A stretch of DNA of 64,000 bases from Thermoanaerobaculia bacterium (GTDB lineage: Bacteria > Acidobacteriota > Thermoanaerobaculia > Multivoradales > UBA5704). Positions within the stretch are counted from its first letter, which is position 1; every line of letters starts with the position of its first letter. Below, one piece after another: positions 51,157 to 60,308 of this stretch. The stretch covers positions 173,086-237,085 of the forward strand of contig JBGAGQ010000002.1 in NCBI GenBank assembly GCA_044226625.1, in the 5' to 3' direction. Made by a program: the position numbers and the translations under genes. The notes under the pieces are model-generated. The model did not search any database. It saw only the letters and a program-made list of their open reading frames with translations, and was not told the origin of the DNA.

Positions 51157-52290
51157 ATGAAACGAGCCGCGAAGTGGGCGCGCCGGCTGCCGCTTTTCCT
51201 CCTGATCCTGGGAGTTCTCAACACACCGTCCTTTTCTCTTCCGGTGGGAACGCCGGTTGTGATCACCGGCGACGAGGAGTGCGAGGTGAGCGTCGACGGC
51301 GAATCGATCGGGACCGTCGCCGCCGGGGAGATCAAGAAGATTTCCCTCGTGTCCGGAGAACACTTGGTGAGCGCCAGCTGTCCGGGCGGCCGTCGATGGA
51401 AAGACACGGTGACGGTCGGAAAAGATCAAAAAGTGGTGACGATCGCTTCGGCGTCCTCGGCAACGTCGCCTTCGGCTTCCGGTCCATCGGCCGATGCCGA
51501 AGACGTCACCATCGGCAGCGGGTGTTTCCTGCTTTTCGACCAGGAGAAGCTCGTTCCCGCCGGCCGCTGGAGGGTCGGCGGGGTGATCAAGAACGGACCC
51601 TGCGACAAGGGGGGAATCCGTCCCGGTGGCATCGTCCTCTCGCTCGGCGGCAAGAAGGCGAAGGACCTCTCGCCGGACGACCTCGAGAAACTCGACGGCG
51701 GCCCGGCCGGGACGAAGCTCACCTGGGAAGTGGTCGACCGCGAGGGTGAGATCAAGAAGGTGGTTCTCGTTCAGATCGCCTACCCGAAATCCGGGAGCGT
51801 CGAGGTCATGCAGCCCGACGGGCAGAGCGTCCGTACGGTGCCCTACGACGGCTACGACTCGATGATCCAGGCGTTCCGAAGCTCACTGCTGGACTCGAGC
51901 TCGACGGCGCCGGCCGCGACCGTCTCCACCCCCTCGCCGACGCCTTCGACGGCGAGACGCTGCGTCGGCAAGGCCACGTCCTGCTGGTTGCGCCCCGCCG
52001 GCACCTGTACCTCCGGCCGAGGATGCGTCCCGTCGGGAAATTGCCTCGGCTTTGCAGGCAGCTGCTTCGGCAAATCCGAATTCACCTGCGCGACGACGCC
52101 CGGCTGCTACTGGATGTCCTTTTCGAAGACCTGCAGCGGCATGGGGCCGACCTGCGCCGGCAAGACCGAGTACACCTGCGCCGCGACCCCGGGTTGCAAC
52201 TGGGTCTCCTCCTGCGCCGGGACGGCGACGCCGTGCGCTTTGCTCGGCGAAACGGACTGCTTCTCCCAGCCCGGCTGCAACTGGCAGTAG
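51157..52290 (+). CDS. Secreted protein with PEGA-like and PDZ-like domains and four C-terminal 4-Cys repeats
   Basis: Signal peptide; 'VSVDGESIG..GEHLV'; 'GPCDKGGIRPGGIVLSLGG..GPAGTKL'; Cys repeats at 51961-52290. Confidence 0.75.
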   Translation: MKRAAKWARRLPLFLLILGVLNTPSFSLPVGTPVVITGDEECEVSVDGESIGTVAAGEIKKISLVSGEHLVSASCPGGRRWKDTVTVGKDQKVVTIASASSATSPSASGPSADAEDVTIGSGCFLLFDQEKLVPAGRWRVGGVIKNGPCDKGGIRPGGIVLSLGGKKAKDLSPDDLEKLDGGPAGTKLTWEVVDREGEIKKVVLVQIAYPKSGSVEVMQPDGQSVRTVPYDGYDSMIQAFRSSLLDSSSTAPAATVSTPSPTPSTARRCVGKATSCWLRPAGTCTSGRGCVPSGNCLGFAGSCFGKSEFTCATTPGCYWMSFSKTCSGMGPTCAGKTEYTCAATPGCNWVSSCAGTATPCALLGETDCFSQPGCNWQ

Positions 52291-52370
52291 GCGCTGGAGA
52301 AAGAGAGGTGGCTTCGGCTCGCCTCACTCCGGAGGGTCTCCCGCTGGCCGGCCGGGGACGGTCTTCGTCG

Positions 52371-52622
52371 GCTACACAAGAACCTCCGCCAGCTACACAA
52401 GAATCGCGGCGGGGCTCGAGGGAAGCGGCGATCGTCTCGAGAGAGTCTCCTTCGGGCTCGAGAGAATCGCCGACGGCTACACGAGAACTCTCGTCGGTTC
52501 CACAAGAACCGCGGCCGGGGCCGAGAGAATCGGCGAAGTTCGCACGAGAACTTGAGCCGGTCGCACGAGAATCTCCGCCGGGTTCGAGAGAACCGACGCC
52601 GGGACCGAGAGAATCGCCAGCG
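52371..52622. repeat. Degenerate tandem array, 12 x 21 bp, core (C/G)(A/G)AGAA
   Basis: Units at 52371, 52392, 52413 ... 52602 with exact 21-bp period. Confidence 0.9.
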
Positions 52623-52648
52623 GGCGGCTGCAGGCGGGAGAAGTCCTC

Positions 52649-53116
52649 TTAAAGTCCCGCCGACAGATCCCCCCGCTCGAGCGGCAGGCGGGCGAGGTTT
52701 TGCTCGGCCCAGGCGGCGGCGGTGGCGTTCAGGGGGCTTTTCACGTTGTAGCTCTGGAAACCGATCATCTCCGCGATCTGGACCACCATCTGGGCGAGGG
52801 ATTGGCCGGCGCTCCAATGGTCGCCGATGCAGATCTTCTGCGGGTCGATGTTCGGGTGGAACACGGGCGTGACCATGCGACAGAAGGGCGGGCGGCGCGG
52901 ATAGTCGAGCGGCAGGAAGACTTCCGCACGGAAGACCGAGCCGGGGCGCGGCGGGGAGCCGTCGTCCTGCGGTACGAGGCCGCGCAAGCGAAACTCGAAG
53001 GTGTACTTTTCCGGCGGCTCCCCTTCCGTCGCCACGAGACGGATCGAGGGATGATCGGTAAAGAGCGCGGAAACCTTTTCGAAATCCGAGCGCAGCCTGC
53101 GAATTCGCGCGAGCAC
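52649..53116 (-). CDS. Ubiquitin-conjugating enzyme E2 (UBC fold)
   Basis: RRLRSD, YPRRPP, PVFHPNIDPQKIC (HPN plus catalytic Cys), W, SPLN..AA. Confidence 0.93.
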   Translation of the reverse strand: MLARIRRLRSDFEKVSALFTDHPSIRLVATEGEPPEKYTFEFRLRGLVPQDDGSPPRPGSVFRAEVFLPLDYPRRPPFCRMVTPVFHPNIDPQKICIGDHWSAGQSLAQMVVQIAEMIGFQSYNVKSPLNATAAAWAEQNLARLPLERGDLSAGL

Positions 53117-53126
53117 CGTCGTCCTC

Positions 53127-53726
53127 CTACCCTAGCACCACGTATTTGATCCACCAGGCGAGGAGCCCGAATCCGAGGATCGCGCACTGTGCCGCCGCGG
53201 TCGTGAAGGCGACGCGGAACAGTCCGTCGACGCCGCTCGGCAGACGCCGGATCTCCTCTTTCCGGCTCCGATAATAGAGCGCCCCGACCGTGAGCGTAAT
53301 GAGCGAAAGGCCCGGCAGCAGGCTCATGACCATGAACAGGCGCGCAGCGCGCCGAACGGCGGGCGCGCGCTGGCGGCGCACCTCTCGACGCTCGTGGACA
53401 TCCTTGCTCTCGGGGCGGGCTGCGACCTCGGAGCCGCAATGCCGGCAGCGAACGGCGAGCGCCATGATCTTCGCGCCGCACTTCGGGCAATCCTTGTCCT
53501 CGCGCCCCCAATAGGCGGGCGCGACTTCCAGCGCTTTCAACCCTTCCGTCTTCGGCACCTCTTTGCAGCCATAGACGGCGCAGCCGCCGTTTTCGCTCCA
53601 ACATTCGGCATGGTACGGGGCGCGGCAGGAAGGACAGGCGACCGCCGCCTCTCCCGCATCGATGCTCGACATGCAGATCGCGCAGTTTTCGGCCGGCGCG
53701 CTCCGGCTCTCCCCCACGTCGCTCAC
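53127..53726 (-). CDS. Prokaryotic RING finger + zinc ribbon + TM protein (putative E3)
   Basis: CAIC-x12-CPSC-x4-HAEC-x6-C-x4-C (Prok-RING_1 pattern), CPKC..CRHC, two hydrophobic segments; GTGA overlap with the upstream gene. Confidence 0.85.
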   Translation of the reverse strand: MSDVGESRSAPAENCAICMSSIDAGEAAVACPSCRAPYHAECWSENGGCAVYGCKEVPKTEGLKALEVAPAYWGREDKDCPKCGAKIMALAVRCRHCGSEVAARPESKDVHERREVRRQRAPAVRRAARLFMVMSLLPGLSLITLTVGALYYRSRKEEIRRLPSGVDGLFRVAFTTAAAQCAILGFGLLAWWIKYVVLG

Positions 53727-55141
53727 GAGCGCTGCCTCTGCTCGAACAGGAAGCTCGTGTCGCCGATCTGGATGCGGTCTCCTTGACGCAGTCGGGAGGT
53801 ACGGATCGCTTGGCCGTTCACGAAGAGCGGACTCACCGCGTCGCGCGCGGAGATCTCGCACTCGTCGCCGATCATGCGGATCGTCGCGTGGTTCTGGGCC
53901 ACCTTCGGGTCGTTGAACAGGTAGATCTCGGAGCGCGGCGAGGCACCGATGTTCATCACCTCGCGGAACATCAGGAACTCCTTGCCGGCGAGCGGGCCTT
54001 CGACCATGCGCAGCCAAGCGTCGCGGGTGAGCAGCTCGACGACGCCGATCATCACGCCGACCGCGGCGCCGATCACCGCGATGCCGATCATCCGCGCTTG
54101 ATCCGCCCCGACGCGATCTGCGCCGAGCACCACCAGGTCGAGCGGATCGAACAACAGGCCGCCGAGCATGCCGCCGATCAGGCCGCCGAGGAATCCGTGG
54201 CTGAGCAGCTTCTTCGAGCGGAGCGCGATCCCTTGCCCGAGCCCCATCGCGGCACCGGCGAGCGACCAGGCCAGCATGCGCGCGACCATCTGGAACAGGA
54301 AGCCCATCGAGCGCACGGTCTGCGACGGTGAGGCGAGCTGCTCCTGGGCCGCCGTGCTGATCGGGGTATAGAGCACGCCGGCGAGCACGCCCGAGAAGAG
54401 CCCGCCAACGAAACCGACGAGCGCCCCGATCAGGCCACCGAGGATGGCTCGCCGTGCCACCCGGCAGACCACGCCGTCGGCCGCGCCGATCGCGAGGCCG
54501 ATCATCGCGCCGACCACAGCGAACAGGAGAAGGCTCGCCGTCTCGCTCGCCTGGTCTTGGTCGCGGATCGGCGTGAGGGCCTTGGCCTTCGCCGGAACCT
54601 TGGGGGAGGCGTCGACGAAATGGCCGATGGTCAGATCGTTGCCGGCGACCTCGTAGTGCTCGACGAAGACCCCCACCTCGCGCCCCGGAGCGAGCGTCGA
54701 AGGATCGAAAGACCCGAGGATCCGAGTTCCAGAGACGGCGCGGAGGAACGGGAAAAGCCAGATCTTCTGGCCCCGCAGGGTGATCGTCCCCTGGCCGGCG
54801 ATCTCCTGGGCGGCGCTCGGGTCGAGCTTCAGGTCTTCCGGCGTGAGGGTTTCGGCGAAGCTCACCGCTTCGATCTTCCCCTGGACGTAGATGTAGTCTT
54901 CGAGCGACGGCTCGAGGATCGCCCAGGCCGCGAGCGCGGCGAGCAGCCCCACCACGCCAAAGAGGATCCAGTTCTGGTAGAACCAGCGGCGCCTCGGCTC
55001 GGCCGAAAAACCGGTCTCCCCGCGGAGCGCCATCTGACGGCGCAACAGGTCGTCGACGTGCCCGCTTTCGGCCTCCTCGCGGGTGATGACGATCAGGGAA
55101 TCACCCGTTGCTTCGTTCGATTCGTTGGGTCGATCGCTCAT
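53723..55141 (-). CDS. Polytopic membrane protein with C-terminal FHA domain
   Basis: Multiple Gly-rich TM helices; 'NIGASPRSEIYLFNDPKVAQNHA..FVNG..LRQGDRIQIG'. Confidence 0.88.
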   Translation of the reverse strand: MSDRPNESNEATGDSLIVITREEAESGHVDDLLRRQMALRGETGFSAEPRRRWFYQNWILFGVVGLLAALAAWAILEPSLEDYIYVQGKIEAVSFAETLTPEDLKLDPSAAQEIAGQGTITLRGQKIWLFPFLRAVSGTRILGSFDPSTLAPGREVGVFVEHYEVAGNDLTIGHFVDASPKVPAKAKALTPIRDQDQASETASLLLFAVVGAMIGLAIGAADGVVCRVARRAILGGLIGALVGFVGGLFSGVLAGVLYTPISTAAQEQLASPSQTVRSMGFLFQMVARMLAWSLAGAAMGLGQGIALRSKKLLSHGFLGGLIGGMLGGLLFDPLDLVVLGADRVGADQARMIGIAVIGAAVGVMIGVVELLTRDAWLRMVEGPLAGKEFLMFREVMNIGASPRSEIYLFNDPKVAQNHATIRMIGDECEISARDAVSPLFVNGQAIRTSRLRQGDRIQIGDTSFLFEQRQRS

Positions 55142-55177
55142 CAAAGGCTCTCCGGCGCGCCTTCCGGCGCAAGACGG

Positions 55178-56215
55178 CTATTTCTTCGGTGGGACACGCT
55201 TCTTTTCCATTCGTTGACGGCGGAGCTCTTCTTCTTTTTGCTCTTTTTTCTGCTCTTCGATCGTGATCCGCGCGAGCTTGTCGAGATACGCGTCGAGGCG
55301 TGGCGGCACGTTCCAGTCGACGACCGCAACGCCGAGCATCACCGTCTGGTCGCCGATCCGTACCGGCACCGGAACGTAGCTCTGGACTTTCGGCGGCGCC
55401 ACGCGCTCTACCCGATCGCTCCAGATCAAATAGGTGATCCAACCGATGAATCCCGTCGAGAAGACGATCAACAGCGCGAGCAGCGTGCGGTGGAAGTTGC
55501 GCCGCTGCTCGTCGAGCGCTTGGATCAGATGGTTGATCCGCCCTTCGAGCCGCTCCACCTCGCGCCCGAATTCGAGCCCCGGGCCGCGATCGACGTCTCC
55601 CCCTGTCCTCGACGCCGCCGGATCGCCCTTGCGTTCCGCGGCGGGAACTCGCGCCGCGTGCTCACGCCCGTCGACCCAGAACTTCGCCAGGTGCTCGATT
55701 CCCCGCGGCGTGTTCCAGCAGATCGCTGTCTCACCGCCCAGAGGGTCGGTGACGAAGGCGATCTGGGTCGGACCGGAGAAGAAATTCTCCTGGATGAAAA
55801 GGTCCATCGCCGAAAACTCGACGCCGAACCCGGGGTGCGTGTGATACCAGCCGACGATCGAGAGTTTGGGGTAGGTGCGGTCGAGCGTCGCGTGGATCTG
55901 GGTCCAGGTCTCGTGGGTGAAAGTGACCTGCGCCCGCGCCTCGCGCGCCGCGAGCGCGCGGATCACGGCATGCACTTCGATGAACGGTCCCTCGTCATCC
56001 ATGCAGCTTTCGCCGACCAGGACGCCGCCGACCTCCGCATCGACCGATTCCTTGGCGTGCCCGACGAGCTCCGCGTAGGCGCGCCGCGCAAAGGCCACGC
56101 GCAGCGGAACCCCCGTGGCGGCCGGTCCGGGAAAGGTTCTCTGGATCACGCGTGCGGGCTCATCCGGCGCGGCCGAGCCTGCTGCCTCGCGTTCGGCTTT
56201 CGGTTTTCTCGCCAT
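55178..56215 (-). CDS. JAB/MPN+ (JAMM) metallo-isopeptidase with coiled coil and TM
   Basis: EVGGVLVG, IVGWYHTHPGFGVEFSAMD (HxH-x7-S-x2-D), TM 'LLALLIVFSTGFIGWITYLIW'. Confidence 0.92.
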   Translation of the reverse strand: MARKPKAEREAAGSAAPDEPARVIQRTFPGPAATGVPLRVAFARRAYAELVGHAKESVDAEVGGVLVGESCMDDEGPFIEVHAVIRALAAREARAQVTFTHETWTQIHATLDRTYPKLSIVGWYHTHPGFGVEFSAMDLFIQENFFSGPTQIAFVTDPLGGETAICWNTPRGIEHLAKFWVDGREHAARVPAAERKGDPAASRTGGDVDRGPGLEFGREVERLEGRINHLIQALDEQRRNFHRTLLALLIVFSTGFIGWITYLIWSDRVERVAPPKVQSYVPVPVRIGDQTVMLGVAVVDWNVPPRLDAYLDKLARITIEEQKKEQKEEELRRQRMEKKRVPPKK

Positions 56216-56217
56216 GC

Positions 56218-57420
56218 CTACCTCCCCTCTCCGCGATCCGGGACCGGCGCGTCCGCCTCGAGCTCGAATCCGCGGAAGCCCTCGCCGTAGCGCGCCCAGA
56301 CGACCTCCCAGGCCGGGAGGCCGAGCTCGCGCGGCGACTTCGCCAGATGCTCGCTGCCGCGCGGGAACGAATGGACGTAATGCGGCACCCGGTCGGCGCC
56401 GCAGCGTGGGCAGAGCGCCTCGTCCTCGGAGATCGCGTCGACCGGACGCATCACCTCGGTCCGCTCGGTGCACCCCGGACATTCGAGCGCCAGGACCAGC
56501 TCGCGCGGCAGGTCGATCGCGTCGCAACCGCCGAGCAGCTCCTCGGCCCGGCGGAAGACGACATCGAGCGCCGTCTCCGTTCCCCAATCGGCCCGGACCT
56601 CGACCGGCGGCGCTCCATCGTGCCAAGGGCAATTGGGATCGATGGGATAGGAGAGAGCGTATGAGCCGTGGCTCGCCCCATCGAACAGGAACCCCCGGCC
56701 GAATAGGCCCGGCAGGCCGTGGAGGAATTTCACCACCTCCTGCGCCTGGATCGCGCCGATGACCGAGGCGGTGATCGGCGTGGTCGGCACGCCGCCGCTC
56801 GCCAGCGCTCGCCGTGCGAGCATCGAACACGAACGGCGGCGATGGATCTCCCGCCAGTCGACCTCGCCCATCGTGCATTCGTAACAGGCGGTCTCGGGTG
56901 GGAAAAAACCGCGCACGATCCCCTGCATCACCTCGATGCCGCCGTCGATCCACGGACGGCCGAGCCGCGCGCAAGCGCCGTTCAAGAACACCCGCGCCTC
57001 GCGGTTGTCGAGGGCGCCGACCACGACGTCGGCCCACCGGATCCAGCCGAGCCCTAGAGCGGCCATGACGTTCACCGGTAGCGGGTAAACCGTCATCTCC
57101 GGGTAAAGATCGAGCGCCGCACGCGCCGCCGTCACCGCTTTGCCCTTCCCGGCGTCCGCCGCGCGGAAAAGCGGAGAGCGCGAGAGGTTGCTGATCTCGA
57201 TCACGTCCATGTCGGCGATCGCGAGTTGGCCGAGGCCGAGCAGCGCGAGGTTCTTGATCACCTCGTTGCCGAGGGCGCCGGCCCCGACGACCAGGACGCG
57301 ACCGGCGCGCAGCTTCTCCTGCTGCCACCATTGGACGCGCTCGAATCGGGAGAAGCGCGCATCGGCGCCCTCGGGCTCCTGGGAGAGGACGAGGGGCTCC
57401 TCCCCGGTTCCGGCGTTCAA
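56218..57420 (-). CDS. E1-like activating enzyme (ThiF/UBA family) with C-terminal extension
   Basis: VVGAGALGNEVIKNLALLG, DMDVIEISNLSR, DNREAR, ACYECT..RRRSC, C-terminal CPGC/CPRC. Confidence 0.93.
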   Translation of the reverse strand: MNAGTGEEPLVLSQEPEGADARFSRFERVQWWQQEKLRAGRVLVVGAGALGNEVIKNLALLGLGQLAIADMDVIEISNLSRSPLFRAADAGKGKAVTAARAALDLYPEMTVYPLPVNVMAALGLGWIRWADVVVGALDNREARVFLNGACARLGRPWIDGGIEVMQGIVRGFFPPETACYECTMGEVDWREIHRRRSCSMLARRALASGGVPTTPITASVIGAIQAQEVVKFLHGLPGLFGRGFLFDGASHGSYALSYPIDPNCPWHDGAPPVEVRADWGTETALDVVFRRAEELLGGCDAIDLPRELVLALECPGCTERTEVMRPVDAISEDEALCPRCGADRVPHYVHSFPRGSEHLAKSPRELGLPAWEVVWARYGEGFRGFELEADAPVPDRGEGR

Positions 57421-57698
57421 GTCCCGGCCGCTCCGGCGGTGATCTCCGGCTGCAACCGAAGCTCGTCCCCGGCGAGGACGCCCGAGGCGGCGAGCGTCTG
57501 GGTGTCCAGAAGCTGCTGGCCGCTCCGACGGTGATAGAGCTTGTAGCTCATGATCTGGCCATCGGGGCTGTTCAGAGGCAGCGACATCTTTTCGACCAGC
57601 AAGGCGACGATGCGATGGATCGCAACGTCGTCCGGGGTCTCGACGTCGCGCGCCCGGCTGCCGGAGACGTCGAGGACGCGAAGGCGGATGGCGGGCAT
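57417..57698 (-). CDS. Ubiquitin-like (beta-grasp, YukD/EsaB-like) protein
   Basis: 93 aa; 'QLLDTQTLAASGVLAGDELRLQPEITAG-AAGT' matches the ubiquitin C-terminal pattern; RBS AAAGGA. Confidence 0.88.
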   Translation of the reverse strand: MPAIRLRVLDVSGSRARDVETPDDVAIHRIVALLVEKMSLPLNSPDGQIMSYKLYHRRSGQQLLDTQTLAASGVLAGDELRLQPEITAGAAGT

Positions 57699-57724
57699 CA
57701 AACCGATTCCTTTCGAACCGAGCT

Positions 57725-58513
57725 TCAACTCAGGTTGTTGACGATGATCAGGAGGAGGAAGATCACGACGATTGCACCGTTCCACCAGAGCGCGGCCTGC
57801 ATGAGCGCGGTGTTCTTGAGCCGCTTTTCCCGGGAGGCGAGGGCAAGGCCCAGACCGATCACCGCCGGCCAGAAGGTGATCGCGGTGATTCCGACATCGG
57901 CCGCCTCGCTCCCCTCCCCTTCCAACAGCGTCTTGAAAAAGCCGAGGAAAAGCATGCCGACGAAAAGCGTCGACCAAACCGCGAGGCCCAACGCGAGATG
58001 GGAGAGGCTCTTCCGTTTTGCGCTCGGCTCGGAAGTGCTTTGCGCCTCGACGCAAGCGGGGCAGACATGCGTGCCTCCGGGCAGGGCAAAGTCACAGGTT
58101 GCGCAGAGCGGTCGCGCGCACAGGCCACAGCGCACCAGCGCCTCGGATTCGGGATGGTTCGCGCAGCGCTCGTCGAGCATCTTCCGCCGCACGGCCGCAG
58201 CGGCCACGGGGGTGACCGGCAGGAGCGGATGACCGCACACGCACGCGGTCGATTCCGCCGCATTCGACCGTCCGCACTCGGAGCAAAGCTGGGGTTCGAG
58301 CCTCGACTTGGACTGCTCGGCGACACAGTCGCCGCAGTAATCCCAGTTTCCAAGCTCGAACGCGCAGAGGGTACACACCGGTCTGCCGCACGAGGAGCAG
58401 CGAGTGATCGCCGGCCGGCGGGGATGTTCGAAACATTGCAGTGCGCCGGGCGCTGCCGCCGGCGACTCGGCGGCCGGAGGGCTCGTTGCGGGAGAGGCGC
58501 CTTCGATGTCCAT
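57725..58513 (-). CDS. Double B-box-like zinc finger + zinc ribbon + TM protein
   Basis: Two C-x2-HP-x6-C-x2-C-x4-C-x2-C..C-x2-C units, CSEC..CVC ribbon, three C-terminal TM helices. Confidence 0.82.
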   Translation of the reverse strand: MDIEGASPATSPPAAESPAAAPGALQCFEHPRRPAITRCSSCGRPVCTLCAFELGNWDYCGDCVAEQSKSRLEPQLCSECGRSNAAESTACVCGHPLLPVTPVAAAAVRRKMLDERCANHPESEALVRCGLCARPLCATCDFALPGGTHVCPACVEAQSTSEPSAKRKSLSHLALGLAVWSTLFVGMLFLGFFKTLLEGEGSEAADVGITAITFWPAVIGLGLALASREKRLKNTALMQAALWWNGAIVVIFLLLIIVNNLS

Positions 58514-58520
58514 TCGCGCG

Positions 58521-58916
58521 CTACTTCTGACCCAGGCGCGCCATCAGGCCCAGGACCCAGAGGATCAGGCCGACGGCGGCGATCACGAGCGCCGCGGTCG
58601 CTTTGCCGCCCCCGGTGAGGTTCGGGTTGGCGGCGATCTCGCGTTTCGCCTTGAGCGCCTTCGAGATCGCCATCGGTTCCAGGATGATGCCGAAGCAGAA
58701 AATGCCGATGATCGCGGTCTTCAGGGCCTCATCGGCCTCCTTGCAAGGCTCCGTCGCCTGCTCGAAGACGGGGATCCCGCCCGCGAGCGCCGAGACCTTG
58801 CAGGCCCCGCAGAATTTCTGCCCTTTGATCGTCACCAGGCAGTTGCCGCAAAACGGCTCCTGGCATGCGGTACAGCGATCGGCAGCCTCGACCCCGGGAT
58901 GATTTCGACATTCCAT
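58521..58916 (-). CDS. B-box-like zinc finger + DUF4190-like membrane protein
   Basis: MECRNHP..CTAC..FCGNC..FCGAC; 'AISKALKAKREI..GGGKATAALVI'; RBS GAGGAGG. Confidence 0.82.
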   Translation of the reverse strand: MECRNHPGVEAADRCTACQEPFCGNCLVTIKGQKFCGACKVSALAGGIPVFEQATEPCKEADEALKTAIIGIFCFGIILEPMAISKALKAKREIAANPNLTGGGKATAALVIAAVGLILWVLGLMARLGQK

Positions 58917-59174: not shown

Positions 59175-60308
59175 ATGGACCTCGGTGCGACCTTCACGCT
59201 CCTCTCCGGCGGAACCCTGTTCCTCGGGATCTTCCTCGGCGTCTTCCTGTTTACGCAGGGGGGACCGAATGCCCGCTCGCAGCAGATTCTGGGACTCCTG
59301 ATCCTCGCTTGCGCGTTGAACGCCGCGCATCCGGTTCTGGTGCGGACGATGGGGCTCCCGCACGGGGGGCCGAGGCATTTCTTCGAGCCCCTTCAGTTCC
59401 TTCTTGCGCCGCTCATGACGGCGTATGCCGTCTCCCTGCTCGAAGGAGGGTTTCCCTGGCGCGCGCGACATGCGCTCCACCTGCTGCCGGCGGCCTTCGC
59501 GGGGGCGGTGGCGCTGCGATACTCGCTCCACCCCGACGGCTCGTCGTGGATCTCGCTCGGCCTCTGGGGCCTGTTGTCGATCCAGATATTGGCCTATCTC
59601 GTTCCGGCGGTGCGCGTCCTCCGCCGCTATCGGCTCTCGCTCCCTGAACGGGTGTCGAACCTCGATCGGGTCGATCTCGACTGGTTGCGCTGGTTTTATT
59701 TAGTCGTCTTCTCCCTGTGCACGGTGGCCTGGGCGGTTCCGCTGCTCTGGGTCCACCGGATGCCACGGTCGATCCTGAGTCACGGCCTTTCCCTGGCGAC
59801 AACGGCCGCGGTCTGGGTGCTCGGCTACCGCGGACTGCGCCAGAAGATCCCGGACGCCGCCGAGGTCGACCGGTTGGAGCCGTCCCGGGCGGAGGAGCCG
59901 GAGGCGAAGCCGCGCCCTCCCCTGGCGAAACCCGAGGCGCAACGCCTCAAGGCCGCGCTGGTCGACATGCTGGAGACGCGGAAGCCCTATCTCGATCCGG
60001 AGCTCGGGCTCGCCGATCTCGCGCGGCTGCTCGGCACGCCGCGAAACGTCCTCTCGGCGGTGATCAACCAGGAGTTGGGCATGAACTTCTACGATCTGGT
60101 GAACGGCTACCGGGTCCGGGAGTTTCGCGCTCTGCTCGCCGACCCGGAGCGGCGGGAGGAAAAGCTGCTCACCCTCGCCTTCGACGCCGGTTTCAATTCG
60201 AAGCCGACGTTCAACAAGGTGGTGCTCAAGACGACGGGACAGACCCCTTCCCAGCTCCGAGAGGAGGCGATCGAGTCTCGACCGTCCCATCGAGCCCCGG
60301 ATCCCTGA
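59175..60308 (+). CDS. Membrane-bound AraC family transcriptional regulator
   Basis: N-terminal multi-TM region; YLDPELGL, LSAVIN, NFYDLVNGYRV, AFDAGFNSKPTFN. Confidence 0.9.
   Translation: MDLGATFTLLSGGTLFLGIFLGVFLFTQGGPNARSQQILGLLILACALNAAHPVLVRTMGLPHGGPRHFFEPLQFLLAPLMTAYAVSLLEGGFPWRARHALHLLPAAFAGAVALRYSLHPDGSSWISLGLWGLLSIQILAYLVPAVRVLRRYRLSLPERVSNLDRVDLDWLRWFYLVVFSLCTVAWAVPLLWVHRMPRSILSHGLSLATTAAVWVLGYRGLRQKIPDAAEVDRLEPSRAEEPEAKPRPPLAKPEAQRLKAALVDMLETRKPYLDPELGLADLARLLGTPRNVLSAVINQELGMNFYDLVNGYRVREFRALLADPERREEKLLTLAFDAGFNSKPTFNKVVLKTTGQTPSQLREEAIESRPSHRAPDP

What the first reader, a model, noticed from the sequence alone, without database searches (positions are those of the whole stretch)
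52649..58916. Complete, membrane-tethered, eukaryote-like ubiquitination operon (Ubl-E1-E2-RING E3-JAMM plus B-box and FHA partners)
Seen: eight co-oriented genes with overlaps or gaps under 40 bp, in the order B-box/DUF4190-like, 2xB-box-ZnR-TM, Ubl, E1, JAMM-CC-TM, multi-TM-FHA, RING-ZnR-TM, E2. The catalytic motifs look intact. Established: E1-E2-RING-JAMM is the eukaryotic ubiquitin cascade, and RING-containing prokaryotic operons were predicted by comparative genomics (Pfam Prok-RING_1). The characterised bacterial systems I know (CBASS Cap2/Cap3, Bil) use no RING E3. Inference: five of eight products are membrane proteins, so this may tag membrane substrates (ERAD-like quality control, envelope-stress signalling or phage sensing). 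No sulfur-transfer (thi/moa/cys) genes are adjacent.
Basis: partly seen in the sequence, partly recalled or inferred. Interest (0 to 1): 0.92.

Follow-up and report, generated by a model that had tools for sequence, protein, structure and literature searches.

The report
Membrane-bound bacterial ubiquitin-like tagging operon
Eight tightly packed genes encode a complete ubiquitin-style protein-tagging machine anchored in the bacterial inner membrane; the type was predicted from genomes in 2011, I found no report of a bench test in bacteria, and the whole cassette is conserved gene for gene across many phyla.

Summary
Window 52649-58916 (minus strand) holds eight co-oriented genes separated by at most 36 nt or overlapping by 4 nt. 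In order they are B-box/DUF4190-2TM, B-box-3TM, Ubl, E1, JAMM-1TM, 6TM-FHA, RING-2TM and E2. All catalytic and zinc-binding residues are invariant in 31-37 orthologues. The same eight genes, in the same order, occur in 29 of 42 related loci from at least eight phyla. Seven more loci are collinear until a contig end. The cassette is nevertheless rare and patchy: 2 of 41 relatives carry it, and it is present or absent at one site within the genus. The Ubl always ends ...EITAG plus a variable tail, so it looks like a pro-Ubl trimmed by the JAMM. E1, E2 and JAMM are closest to eukaryotic or Caldiarchaeum enzymes. The FHA lacks the phosphothreonine-binding residues. A complex prediction docks the RING protein's transmembrane hairpin on the glycine-zipper helices of the FHA protein (ipSAE 0.71, best control 0.00). 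The operon class is already in print as a prediction (Burroughs 2011, not readable here). Its biological role is unknown.

The parts
58521..58916 (-). g1: B-box zinc finger followed by a two-helix DUF4190 membrane hairpin (131 aa)
   Evidence: One search gives DUF4190 9.4e-8 and zf-B_box 0.0025; 27 of 31 orthologues hit ANCHR-like B-box. C3, H6, C15, C18, C23, C26, C36 and C39 are invariant; two TM segments.
57725..58513 (-). g2: two B-boxes with a zinc ribbon between them, then three TM helices (262 aa). Only the membrane-proximal B-box is universal.
   Evidence: zf-B_box 1.1e-6, two stretches. C117, H120, C129, C132, C137, C140, C151 and C154 are invariant in 24 of 24. The N-terminal B-box and the middle ribbon vary; three TM segments.
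57417..57698 (-). g3: ubiquitin-like protein (93 aa). The predicted mature end is Gly89 of ...LRLQPEITAG (codon 57432-57434). AAGT (57420-57431) is the predicted propeptide.
   Evidence: YukD 4.3e-9, above threshold. EI[T/I]AG is present in all 34 cassette-type sequences, followed by 0 to 53 variable residues, and six ORFs stop right after the Gly. G89 and K53 are invariant in 32 of 32.
56218..57420 (-). g4: E1 adenylating enzyme with a C-terminal zinc ribbon (400 aa). Candidate catalytic Cys198 is at 56827-56829.
   Evidence: ThiF 1.7e-51; the best solved relatives are eukaryotic UBA7, UBA1, SAE2 and UBA3 (6.5e-27), ahead of ThiF (5e-20). C179, C182, C198, C264, C314, C317, C337 and C340 are invariant in 32 of 32. 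The start overlaps the Ubl stop by 4 nt.
55178..56215 (-). g5: Rpn11-like JAMM metallopeptidase, then a coiled region, one TM helix and about 80 extracytoplasmic residues (345 aa). The HxH...S..D motif lies at 55802-55843.
   Evidence: JAB 1.6e-11; the best solved relative is the Rpn11-like protein 6fjv (1.2e-9), followed by eukaryotic Rpn11 and CSN5. E61, H125, H127, S135 and D138 are invariant in 34 of 34. TM segment at 246-264.
53723..55141 (-). g6: six-TM glycine-zipper membrane protein (472 aa). It has an OB-like extracytoplasmic beta domain (residues 84-177, 54611-54892) and a C-terminal cytoplasmic FHA-fold domain (residues 372-472, 53726-54028).
   Evidence: Yop-YscD_cpl 1.5e-11 and FHA 2.3e-8. 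AlphaFold model with pLDDT 79.9. FHA fold, Z 18.7, rmsd 1.3 over 97 residues against GarA; the pThr-binding Arg is present in 0 of 35 and the Ser in 2 of 35; many glycines in the TM helices are invariant.
53127..53726 (-). g7: C4HC3 RING (Prok-RING_1, residues 15-54, 53565-53684), then a zinc ribbon and a two-helix membrane hairpin (199 aa). This is the predicted E3.
   Evidence: Prok-RING_1 2.6e-11 (43.7 bits, cut-off 29.1). C15, C18, C31, C34, H39, C42, C49, C54 and the ribbon residues C80, C83, C94, C97 are invariant in 35 of 35; two TM segments. The GTG start overlaps the g6 stop by 4 nt; predicted to dock on g6.
52649..53116 (-). g8: UBC-type E2 (155 aa). The HPN motif and catalytic Cys96 (52829-52831) are present.
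   Evidence: UQ_con 9.1e-14; the best solved relatives are eukaryotic E2s, including UBC13/UBE2N and UBC9 (best 4.6e-11). H87, N89 and C96 are invariant in 36 of 36.

Best explanation
The eight genes encode a self-contained, horizontally mobile, inner-membrane-anchored ubiquitin-like conjugation and deconjugation machine.

Proposed steps:
1. The 93-aa Ubl is made as a precursor. The Rpn11-like JAMM peptidase (g5) removes the variable tail after the invariant ...EITAG and exposes Gly89. This step is inferred.
2. The soluble E1 (g4) adenylates that glycine and probably forms a thioester on the invariant Cys198. This step is inferred.
3. The Ubl passes to Cys96 of the UBC-type E2 (g8). This step is inferred from intact motifs.
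4. The C4HC3 RING of g7, held at the membrane by a two-helix hairpin, recruits E2~Ubl to the cytoplasmic face of the inner membrane.
5. The six-TM glycine-zipper protein g6 acts as the intramembrane hub that holds g7. A complex prediction supports this. It may also hold the hairpins of the two B-box proteins and the JAMM protein. Its phospho-independent FHA domain, the B-boxes and the conserved N-terminal helix would serve as cytoplasmic docking or substrate-selecting surfaces.
6. Targets would be membrane-embedded or membrane-associated proteins, including the components themselves. The JAMM peptidase reverses the mark.

The biological role is not shown. The distribution fits an accessory module, either conflict/defence or conditional control of envelope proteins, better than housekeeping quality control.
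For: All catalytic and metal-binding residues are invariant across 31-37 orthologues from many phyla. This covers E2 HPN and Cys, the JAMM motif, the E1 cysteines and the eight RING ligands.

The Ubl ends in Ala-Gly in all 34 cassette-type sequences. The tail after it ranges from 0 to 53 residues and is unconserved, and six genes stop exactly at the Gly. This parallels the pro-ubiquitin that Rpn11 processes in Caldiarchaeum (passages read).

E1, E2 and JAMM are nearer to eukaryotic or Caldiarchaeum enzymes than to ThiF/MoeB.

Gene order and strand are identical in 29 of 42 loci. Seven further loci are collinear as far as their contigs reach. No flanking family is shared by more than 5 loci, so the cassette is the unit.

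Stop and start codons overlap at Ubl/E1 and at g6/g7.

Topology places every zinc finger, the JAMM domain and the FHA domain on the cytoplasmic side.

The g6+g7 complex prediction gave ipSAE 0.71 in three runs against a best control of 0.00. Contacts agreed at 92% or more and partner pLDDT was at least 78. The tool states that its mark was reached by 58 of 80 solved complexes and 2 of 110 mismatched pairs. The interface uses g6 helices 274-289, 318-337 and 367-374, which include the invariant glycine zipper G316-G328, and g7 residues 136-138 and 160-196.

The cassette is patchy. It occurs in 2 of 41 relatives and is present or absent next to the same araC-ABC-FtsX genes within the genus. Five loci hold only remnants. 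The tree splits phyla.
Against: No biochemical step has been observed for any bacterial member. The papers I could read call these operons uncharacterised.

The Ubl's only Pfam match is YukD. That family's founding member is reported not to be conjugated (passage).

No substrate, effector, protease or unfoldase gene is part of the cassette, so the consequence of tagging is unknown.

The complex prediction used my own 35-row alignments and full-length membrane proteins. The controls were unrelated proteins, so generic helix packing may be favoured. It supports binding but does not show it.

No g6-g7 fusion was found (weak evidence).

On a defence role: PADLOC gave only partial E1 and JAB matches. 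The window's flanks are ordinary metabolic and transport genes. Phage and plasmid collections hold no close copy. The proteins are unusually conserved for a defence system, with E2 61-86% identical across phyla.
Confidence: 0.7

Rival explanations
1. The cassette is an anti-phage or anti-mobile-element defence system. Like Bil, it would conjugate its Ubl to invader proteins, here at the inner membrane (injection, assembly or lysis proteins). Alternatively, tagging would switch on a membrane-disrupting activity of the glycine-zipper protein g6 as an abortive-infection response. This rival concerns the biological role and is compatible with the biochemical mechanism above.
For: The distribution is sparse and patchy: 2 of 41 relatives, and no close orthologue in 400 other genomes of the phylum. 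The cassette is present or absent at one site within the genus. It has moved between phyla, and decayed remnants exist. The extracytoplasmic parts of g6 and g5 are the least conserved segments (A2 mean column identity 42% against 60% for the whole protein). The characterised bacterial Ubl systems Bil and type II CBASS are both immune pathways (passages). Aravind and colleagues regard such operons as mobile, conflict-type elements (section read).
Against: PADLOC found no specific model. The window shows no defence-island context, and no neighbour recurs across the 42 loci. Phage and plasmid collections hold no close copy. The core proteins are highly conserved. No recognisable toxin or nuclease effector is present.
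Confidence: 0.35
2. The cassette is an accessory, ERAD-like or MARCH-like regulator of the cell's own membrane proteins. Tagging would mark envelope proteins for extraction, degradation or altered activity under particular conditions.
For: Five of the eight products are membrane proteins with cytoplasmic zinc-finger or FHA modules. The RING is C4HC3 and is followed by two TM helices. From recall, that is the layout of eukaryotic MARCH/K3-type ligases, which select targets through transmembrane contacts. The core proteins are strongly conserved across phyla, as expected for interaction with conserved cellular partners. The flanks in the window are ordinary genes.
Against: The system is missing from most close relatives, so it cannot be a general quality-control route. 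No protease, AAA+ unfoldase or proteasome gene travels with it. No target is known.
Confidence: 0.3
3. The Ubl is not conjugated. It would be a YukD-type structural subunit, and the FHA/YscD-like membrane protein would be part of a secretion or assembly apparatus, with the E1, E2 and JAMM homologues doing something else such as sulfur transfer or metabolite ligation.
For: The best Pfam labels for g3 and g6 are YukD (type VII secretion accessory protein) and Yop-YscD_cpl (type III secretion inner-membrane component). YukD itself is reported not to be conjugated (passage).
Against: No secretion ATPase, substrate or channel gene lies in or beside the cassette in any of the 42 loci. The Ubl has an invariant C-terminal Gly exposed or followed by a disposable tail. 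The E2 keeps HPN and Cys, and the JAMM and RING sites are invariant. The E1 is closer to eukaryotic Ub/Ubl E1s than to ThiF/MoeB. No thi, moa or cys genes are adjacent.
Confidence: 0.05

Closest known systems
Prokaryotic 'complete' ubiquitin-type operons with a Prok-RING_1 E3 (predicted by Burroughs, Iyer and Aravind 2011; archaeal prototype in Caldiarchaeum subterraneum, reconstituted by Hennell James et al. 2017 and Fuchs et al. 2018)
   Same: Both have Ubl, a ThiF-type E1, a UBC-type E2, a small RING E3 and an Rpn11-like JAMM peptidase in one operon. Both have a pro-Ubl with a tail after the conjugating glycine. [quoted passage not shown]
   Different: The archaeal system has five soluble components and a Gly-Gly end, as described in the passages read. 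This cassette has eight genes and an Ala-Gly end. Its RING and JAMM proteins are membrane-anchored, and it adds two B-box membrane proteins and a six-TM FHA protein. I could not read the 2011 paper, so I cannot say how much of the eight-gene layout it already shows.
Bil (BilABCD), type II CBASS Cap2/Cap3 and Bub: the experimentally characterised bacterial Ubl-conjugation systems
   Same: All have bacterial E1/E2-type chemistry, a JAB or other peptidase, and a sparse accessory distribution (passages).
   Different: The passages read list Ubl, E2, JAB and E1 for Bil and a fused E2-E1 for CBASS, with no RING E3 or membrane scaffold mentioned. PADLOC models matched only part of the E1 and the JAB domain of this cassette, and matched the E2, Ubl, RING, B-box and FHA proteins not at all.
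Eukaryotic membrane RING ligases (MARCH/viral K3-K5 RING-CH, Doa10, Hrd1) and split analogues of FHA-RING (RNF8, CHFR) and RING-B-box (TRIM) ligases. This comparison is from recall.
   Same: g7 is a C4HC3 RING followed by two TM helices. RING, B-box, coiled-region and FHA modules all sit together at one membrane, and the FHA protein is predicted to bind the RING protein.
   Different: Here the modules are separate polypeptides joined through TM helices. g7 gave no Pfam RINGv match at E up to 0.1. The FHA lacks the phosphopeptide-binding residues. The resemblance is in layout, and homology is not established.

Membership tests
Prokaryotic complete Ub-type operon with Prok-RING_1 (Burroughs 2011 class / Caldiarchaeum type) | Beta-grasp Ubl with a conjugatable C-terminal glycine | tested here: met
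   YukD (beta-grasp) 4.3e-9, above threshold. Gly89 is invariant in 32 of 32. It is terminal or followed by a variable tail. The Ubl fold itself was not modelled.
Prokaryotic complete Ub-type operon with Prok-RING_1 (Burroughs 2011 class / Caldiarchaeum type) | ThiF/UBA-type E1, UBC-type E2 with HPN and Cys, and a JAB/Rpn11-type peptidase with an intact JAMM motif | tested here: met
   ThiF 1.7e-51, UQ_con 9.1e-14 and JAB 1.6e-11. H87, N89 and C96 are invariant in 36 of 36, and E61, H125, H127, S135 and D138 in 34 of 34.
Prokaryotic complete Ub-type operon with Prok-RING_1 (Burroughs 2011 class / Caldiarchaeum type) | RING finger of family Prok-RING_1 with all eight zinc ligands. The bacterial forms carry TM helices (this last point is recalled from the Pfam description and comes from no call). 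| tested here: met
   43.7 bits against a cut-off of 29.1. The C4HC3 ligands are invariant in 35 of 35. Two TM segments.
Prokaryotic complete Ub-type operon with Prok-RING_1 (Burroughs 2011 class / Caldiarchaeum type) | The genes are conserved together as one neighbourhood in other genomes | tested here: met
   29 of 42 loci hold all eight genes in the same order. Seven more are collinear up to a contig end.
Prokaryotic complete Ub-type operon with Prok-RING_1 (Burroughs 2011 class / Caldiarchaeum type) | ATP-dependent E1~Ubl and E2~Ubl thioesters and RING-stimulated isopeptide conjugation | not testable with these tools
   This needs reconstitution. It has been shown only for the archaeal system (passages).
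Bil / type II CBASS / Bub defence systems | Proteins match the systems' own profile models (PADLOC), with a fused E2-E1 or the BilABCD gene set | tested here: not met
   Only partial E1 matches (best 2.5e-14, covering residues 35-149) and JAB matches (best 5.2e-7). The E2, Ubl, RING, B-box and FHA proteins gave no match. PADLOC-DB dates from 2023, so later systems are not covered.
FHA domain as a phosphothreonine reader | FHA beta-sandwich fold | tested here: met
   VIA-align Z 18.7, rmsd 1.3 over 97 residues against GarA. Foldseek E 3.9e-8 against OdhI. Pfam FHA 2.3e-8.
FHA domain as a phosphothreonine reader | Conserved Arg after the loop Gly and Ser of the S-x-x-H loop, which contact the phosphate. 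The roles of these residues are recalled. Their positions were read from the GarA alignment. | tested here: not met
   GarA has GR...SRRH where this protein has GA...AQNH. Across 35 orthologues the Arg is present in 0 and the Ser in 2.
YukD (type VII secretion accessory Ubl, not conjugated) | Sequence match to the family together with a type VII secretion gene context (FtsK-like ATPase, WXG100 substrates) | tested here: not met
   The sequence match is met (37.4 bits against a cut-off of 27). The context is not met: no such genes lie in or near the cassette in 42 loci. Unlike what is described for YukD, the C-terminal Gly is invariant.
MARCH / RING-CH membrane E3 ligases | C4HC3 RING followed by TM helices, and a sequence match to the RINGv family | tested here: inconclusive
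   The architecture is present. No RINGv match at E up to 0.1 appeared among the 18 Pfam hits of g7. No structural comparison of the RING was made.
B-box zinc finger (TRIM-type) | B-box ligand pattern and profile match | tested here: met
   g2 scores 29.1 bits against a cut-off of 24.1, with eight ligands invariant in 24 of 24. The window's g1 is below threshold (18.4 bits), but 27 of 31 orthologues hit ANCHR-like B-box and the eight ligands are invariant.

The most novel reading that the evidence does not exclude
The cassette builds a single inner-membrane ubiquitin-ligase holo-complex. A six-TM glycine-zipper protein would serve as an intramembrane socket for the TM hairpins of a RING-CH-like E3, two B-box adaptors and an Rpn11-like deubiquitinase. 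The complex would conjugate a YukD-type Ubl ending in Ala-Gly to membrane or invader proteins. If so, this would be the first RING-dependent Ubl conjugation shown in bacteria. It would also be a split prokaryotic counterpart of the MARCH, TRIM and FHA-RING ligase layouts, spread as one mobile eight-gene unit across at least eight phyla.
Probability: 0.35. Interest if true: 0.85.

Novelty: new member of a known kind. Interest (0 to 1): 0.6.

Why it matters
RING-type E3 ligases are the largest enzyme group of the eukaryotic ubiquitin system. Among the papers I could search and read, the only prokaryotic RING cascade that has been reconstituted is the archaeal one from Caldiarchaeum. This bacterial cassette is compact at 6.3 kb. 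Every motif is intact, and the gene set is stable across phyla. It also offers clear handles for experiments: the ITAG cleavage site, E1 Cys198, E2 Cys96, the RING ligands and the g6 TM5 glycine zipper.

Showing that it conjugates would extend RING-dependent tagging to bacteria. It would also reveal what a membrane-anchored version does, and it would bear on whether eukaryotic membrane ligase layouts had prokaryotic forerunners. If it proves to be a defence system, it would be a new mechanistic type beside Bil and CBASS.

Tried and rejected
Literature. Eight full-text searches found no experimental paper on a bacterial Ubl-E1-E2-RING-JAB operon and no description of the B-box/FHA eight-gene layout. 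The primary source, Burroughs 2011 (PMC5938088), and the 2012 review (PMC5881585) are not held. The layout may therefore already be drawn there or in its supplements. Supplements were not consulted.

Fused forms. A search for longer proteins related to g7 found none at E up to 1e-5 among 6542 candidates. This is weak evidence.

Expression. No RNA holder was listed among 4 runs.

Promoters and terminators. The scan found 0 promoter-like sites and 5 terminator-like sites, against 4.3 expected by chance. This is uninformative.

Extracytoplasmic domain of g6. Modelled alone it reached pLDDT 87.6. Foldseek found nothing at E up to 0.001, and the best match was an OB domain of lysyl-tRNA synthetase at 0.019. 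The best VIA-align Z was 7.2, followed by many SSB, RPA and PriB OB folds at Z 6-6.8. That is below the tool's own noise mark of 8. I therefore call it an OB-like beta-barrel only and assign it no family.

TM bundle of g6. Whole-model searches were filled by FHA matches. The TM part was not searched on its own.

ESM Atlas for g6. It returned only its own kind of FHA clusters, from Verrucomicrobiota, Acidobacteriota and Planctomycetota.

Eukaryotic contamination was rejected. GC content is 0.64-0.70 in the operon and similar in the flanks. The operon structure is bacterial, and more than 40 bacterial loci carry it.

Sulfur-carrier reading was rejected. See the third rival explanation.

Full report
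WHAT IS THERE

On the minus strand of window 52649-58916 lie eight open reading frames with plausible starts and ribosome-binding sites:
- g1 58521-58916
- g2 57725-58513
- g3 57417-57698
- g4 56218-57420
- g5 55178-56215
- g6 53723-55141
- g7 53127-53726
- g8 52649-53116

Successive genes are 7, 26, -4, 2, 36, -4 and 10 nt apart. The next gene on the g1 side is divergent (an AraC-type regulator, 59175-60308). The next gene on the g8 side is convergent (51157-52290).

Pfam gives these assignments:
- g1: DUF4190 and a sub-threshold B-box
- g2: B-box, two stretches, above threshold
- g3: YukD
- g4: ThiF plus a C-terminal zinc ribbon
- g5: JAB
- g6: Yop-YscD_cpl and FHA at the C-terminus
- g7: Prok-RING_1 plus zinc-ribbon families
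- g8: UQ_con

For g1 the B-box call rests on the orthologues. Of 31 sequences, 27 hit ANCHR-like B-box, 12 hit zf-B_box and 29 hit DUF4190. The eight ligands are invariant.

A hydropathy scan and an AlphaFold model of g6 (pLDDT 79.9, pTM 0.73) give 2, 3, 1, 6 and 2 TM helices for g1, g2, g5, g6 and g7. Ubl, E1 and E2 have none. With these topologies every zinc finger, the JAMM domain and the FHA domain face the cytoplasm.

The flanking genes are an epimerase-family gene, a class I/II aminotransferase, a PDZ-like secreted protein, an AraC-type regulator, an ABC ATPase and an FtsX permease. No sulfur-transfer genes are present.

IS IT MORE THAN CHANCE

The E2 has 2190 relatives at E up to 1e-5 in the metagenome protein collection. 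The 120 best are 69-100% identical and 152-157 aa long.

A scan of one genome per species found 42 loci. They come from Thermoanaerobaculia and Blastocatellia (Acidobacteriota), Planctomycetota, Verrucomicrobiota, Kiritimatiellota, Gemmatimonadota, Vulcanimicrobiota, Thermodesulfobacteriota and others. I ran tblastn and ORF-level BLAST with the eight window proteins. The 42 loci fall into four groups:
- 29 hold all eight genes in the same order and strand.
- 7 are collinear as far as the contig reaches (L003, L011, L025, L030, L041, L042, L043). In L043, g6 and g8 are split across reading frames.
- 5 are remnants or rearranged. L024 has a partial RING plus E2 only. L027 has g6, g7 and g8 but only the C-terminal part of the JAMM gene (residues 125-328), and no E1 or JAMM N-terminus in the 1157 nt upstream. 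L034 has a partial RING plus E2. L039 and L040 have E2 fragments only.
- 1 is a different, soluble variant (L044): E1-Ubl-E2-JAB without RING, B-box or FHA.

I clustered 1047 flanking ORFs. No neighbour family occurs in more than 5 loci. The eight genes are therefore the conserved unit.

RESIDUE-LEVEL CHECKS

Across 31-37 orthologues the following are invariant:
- E2: H87, N89, C96
- JAMM: E61, H125, H127, S135, D138
- E1: C179, C182, C198, C264 and the four ribbon cysteines
- RING: C15, C18, C31, C34, H39, C42, C49, C54 (a C4HC3 pattern) and the ribbon residues C80, C83, C94, C97

Cys198 of the E1 lies between the CxxC pair and the PTT motif. That is the region where the alignment to UBA5 shows UBA5's cysteine-bearing loop. 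Its catalytic role is inferred.

The Ubl is the most telling. All 34 cassette-type sequences end in ...LRLQPEI[T/I]AG. After that motif come 0 to 53 unconserved residues, and six genes stop directly after the Gly. The window's copy carries AAGT after Gly89. This is the signature of a conjugatable Ubl made as a precursor. In the passages I read, Caldiarchaeum pro-ubiquitin has a nine-residue tail that its Rpn11 homologue removes.

Lys53 of the Ubl is also invariant.

KINSHIP OF THE ENZYMES

By sequence search against solved structures:
- The E2 is closest to eukaryotic E2s, among them UBC13/UBE2N and UBC9 (best 4.6e-11).
- The E1 is closest to eukaryotic UBA7, UBA1, SAE2 and UBA3 (6.5e-27), ahead of ThiF (5e-20) and MoeB (2e-16).
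- The JAMM protein is closest to an Rpn11-like protein, entry 6fjv (1.2e-9). I take this to be the Caldiarchaeum enzyme of the paper listed. Eukaryotic Rpn11 and CSN5 follow.
- The Ubl has no solved sequence relative.

THE FHA PARTNER

The C-terminal domain of g6 has the FHA fold (Z 18.7, rmsd 1.3 over 97 residues against GarA; Foldseek 3.9e-8). In the alignment, GarA reads GR...SRRH where g6 reads GA...AQNH. Among 35 orthologues the Arg is never present and the Ser is present twice. From recall, these are the phosphate-contacting residues. The domain is therefore probably a phospho-independent docking module, like the YscD-type domain that is its best Pfam match. That fits the absence of any kinase gene in the cassette.

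Between TM1 and TM2, g6 has a confidently modelled beta domain. It resembles OB folds only weakly. It is also the least conserved part of the protein (A2 mean column identity 42%, against 60% for the whole protein).

A PREDICTED MEMBRANE COMPLEX

g6 and g7 overlap by 4 nt. A complex prediction with both full-length proteins and 35-row alignments gave ipSAE 0.71 in each of three runs, against 0.00 for the best of three controls. Contacts agreed at 92% or more, and partner pLDDT was at least 78. The tool states that its mark was reached by 58 of 80 solved complexes and 2 of 110 mismatched pairs, and that these counts hold only roughly with my own alignments.

The interface joins g7 residues 136-138 and 160-196 (its TM hairpin) to g6 helices 274-289, 318-337 and 367-374. 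The second of these helices carries the invariant glycine zipper G316, G319, G320, G323, G324, G327, G328. This supports binding but does not show it.

The result suggests what the many invariant TM glycines of g6 are for. They would form packing faces for partner helices, possibly including those of g1, g2 and g5. That extension is untested.

No g6-g7 fusion protein was found (weak evidence).

DISTRIBUTION

The E2 was found in only 2 of 41 genomes of the genus, family and order, the window's own genome included. In a sample of 400 further genomes of the phylum, 9 had an E2 at E up to 1e-20, all only 34-53% identical.

Two same-genus genomes (G001, G003) keep the araC-ABC-FtsX genes but lack the cassette beside them. 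G002 has it at the same place.

A tree of concatenated E1, JAMM, g6 and E2 (31 rows) recovers class-level groups. It separates the two acidobacterial classes, with Thermoanaerobaculia sister to a verrucomicrobial clade (support 95). It also breaks Planctomycetota into at least three groups. So there has been transfer between phyla, with vertical descent or local transfer within classes.

The cassette's GC content does not differ from the flanks. The plasmid collection holds one distant E2 (24.8% identity) and the phage collection none.

WHAT IS KNOWN

From the passages I read:
- Aravind and colleagues describe mobile prokaryotic operons with E1, E2, sometimes E3, and a JAB peptidase. They propose that these act like restriction-modification systems at the protein level.
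- Hennell James et al. state that distant E2 and E3 homologues, including some complete operons, occur in several bacteria.
- Ye et al. [quoted passage not shown]
- One paper that cites Burroughs 2011 says prokaryotic B-boxes are linked to folding, stability and proteolysis of membrane proteins.

The 2011 paper itself could not be read. I recall that the Pfam entry for Prok-RING_1 says the bacterial versions contain TM helices. That comes from no call.

The kind is therefore known as a prediction, and this locus is a new member.

- the strict eight-gene synteny across phyla
- the ITAG-plus-tail Ubl end
- the degenerate FHA
- the C4HC3-RING-plus-two-TM layout
- the predicted g6-g7 intramembrane contact

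VERDICT

The structural interpretation is supported. The functional interpretation remains open, and the novelty was overstated.

I put 0.7 on the biochemical mechanism, a membrane-anchored, RING-assisted, reversible Ubl conjugation. For the role, I put roughly equal and lower odds on defence or conflict versus conditional control of the cell's own membrane proteins.

Noticed in passing
window 52370-52625: The 357-nt gap between the convergent 377-aa gene and the E2 gene is filled by about a dozen degenerate 21-nt tandem units. Tandem Repeats Finder scores two stretches (52540-52618), and the rest are visible by eye. Parts of this stretch (window about 52506-52626) match several other contigs in same-genus genomes G001, G003 and G004, so it looks like a dispersed intergenic repeat family.
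   Followed up: partly
L035 9465-9857 and four other loci, directly after the E2 gene: In 5 loci a small membrane-protein gene (about 130 aa, with a CPF...C..CG motif) follows the E2 gene. It overlaps it or starts within 38 nt on the same strand. It may be an optional ninth gene. The window lacks it.
   Followed up: no
L024, L027, L034, L039, L040, L043: These are decayed or rearranged copies. L024 has a partial RING plus E2 only, with 8.4 kb upstream lacking the other genes, in a bin labelled Bathyarchaeota. L039 and L040 hold E2 C-terminal fragments only. L027 has a truncated JAMM gene. L043 has frame breaks in g6 and E2. None contains runs of N.
   Followed up: partly
L011, L018, L036 (and L024): Contigs from bins labelled Clostridia, Bifidobacteriaceae and Rickettsiales carry the cassette. 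In the tree, L011 nests inside the Blastocatellia clade and L018 inside a verrucomicrobial clade. L036 is unplaced. These may be mis-binned contigs and not real occurrences in those groups.
   Followed up: no
L044 7382-10091: A related but simpler soluble set lies in a Planctomycetota bin. It comprises E1, a YukD-like Ubl ending ...VAG plus a tail, a UBC-type E2 (38% identical) and a short JAB, with no RING, B-box or FHA genes detected. Nine distant E2 genes (34-53% identical) in the phylum sample may belong to this or to other variants.
   Followed up: partly
window 51157-52290 (+): This 377-aa predicted secreted protein has a weak PDZ match and a cysteine-rich C-terminal part with a recurring C...TPGC.W-like motif. 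Only its C-terminal 66 residues have a counterpart beside the cassette in G002.
   Followed up: no
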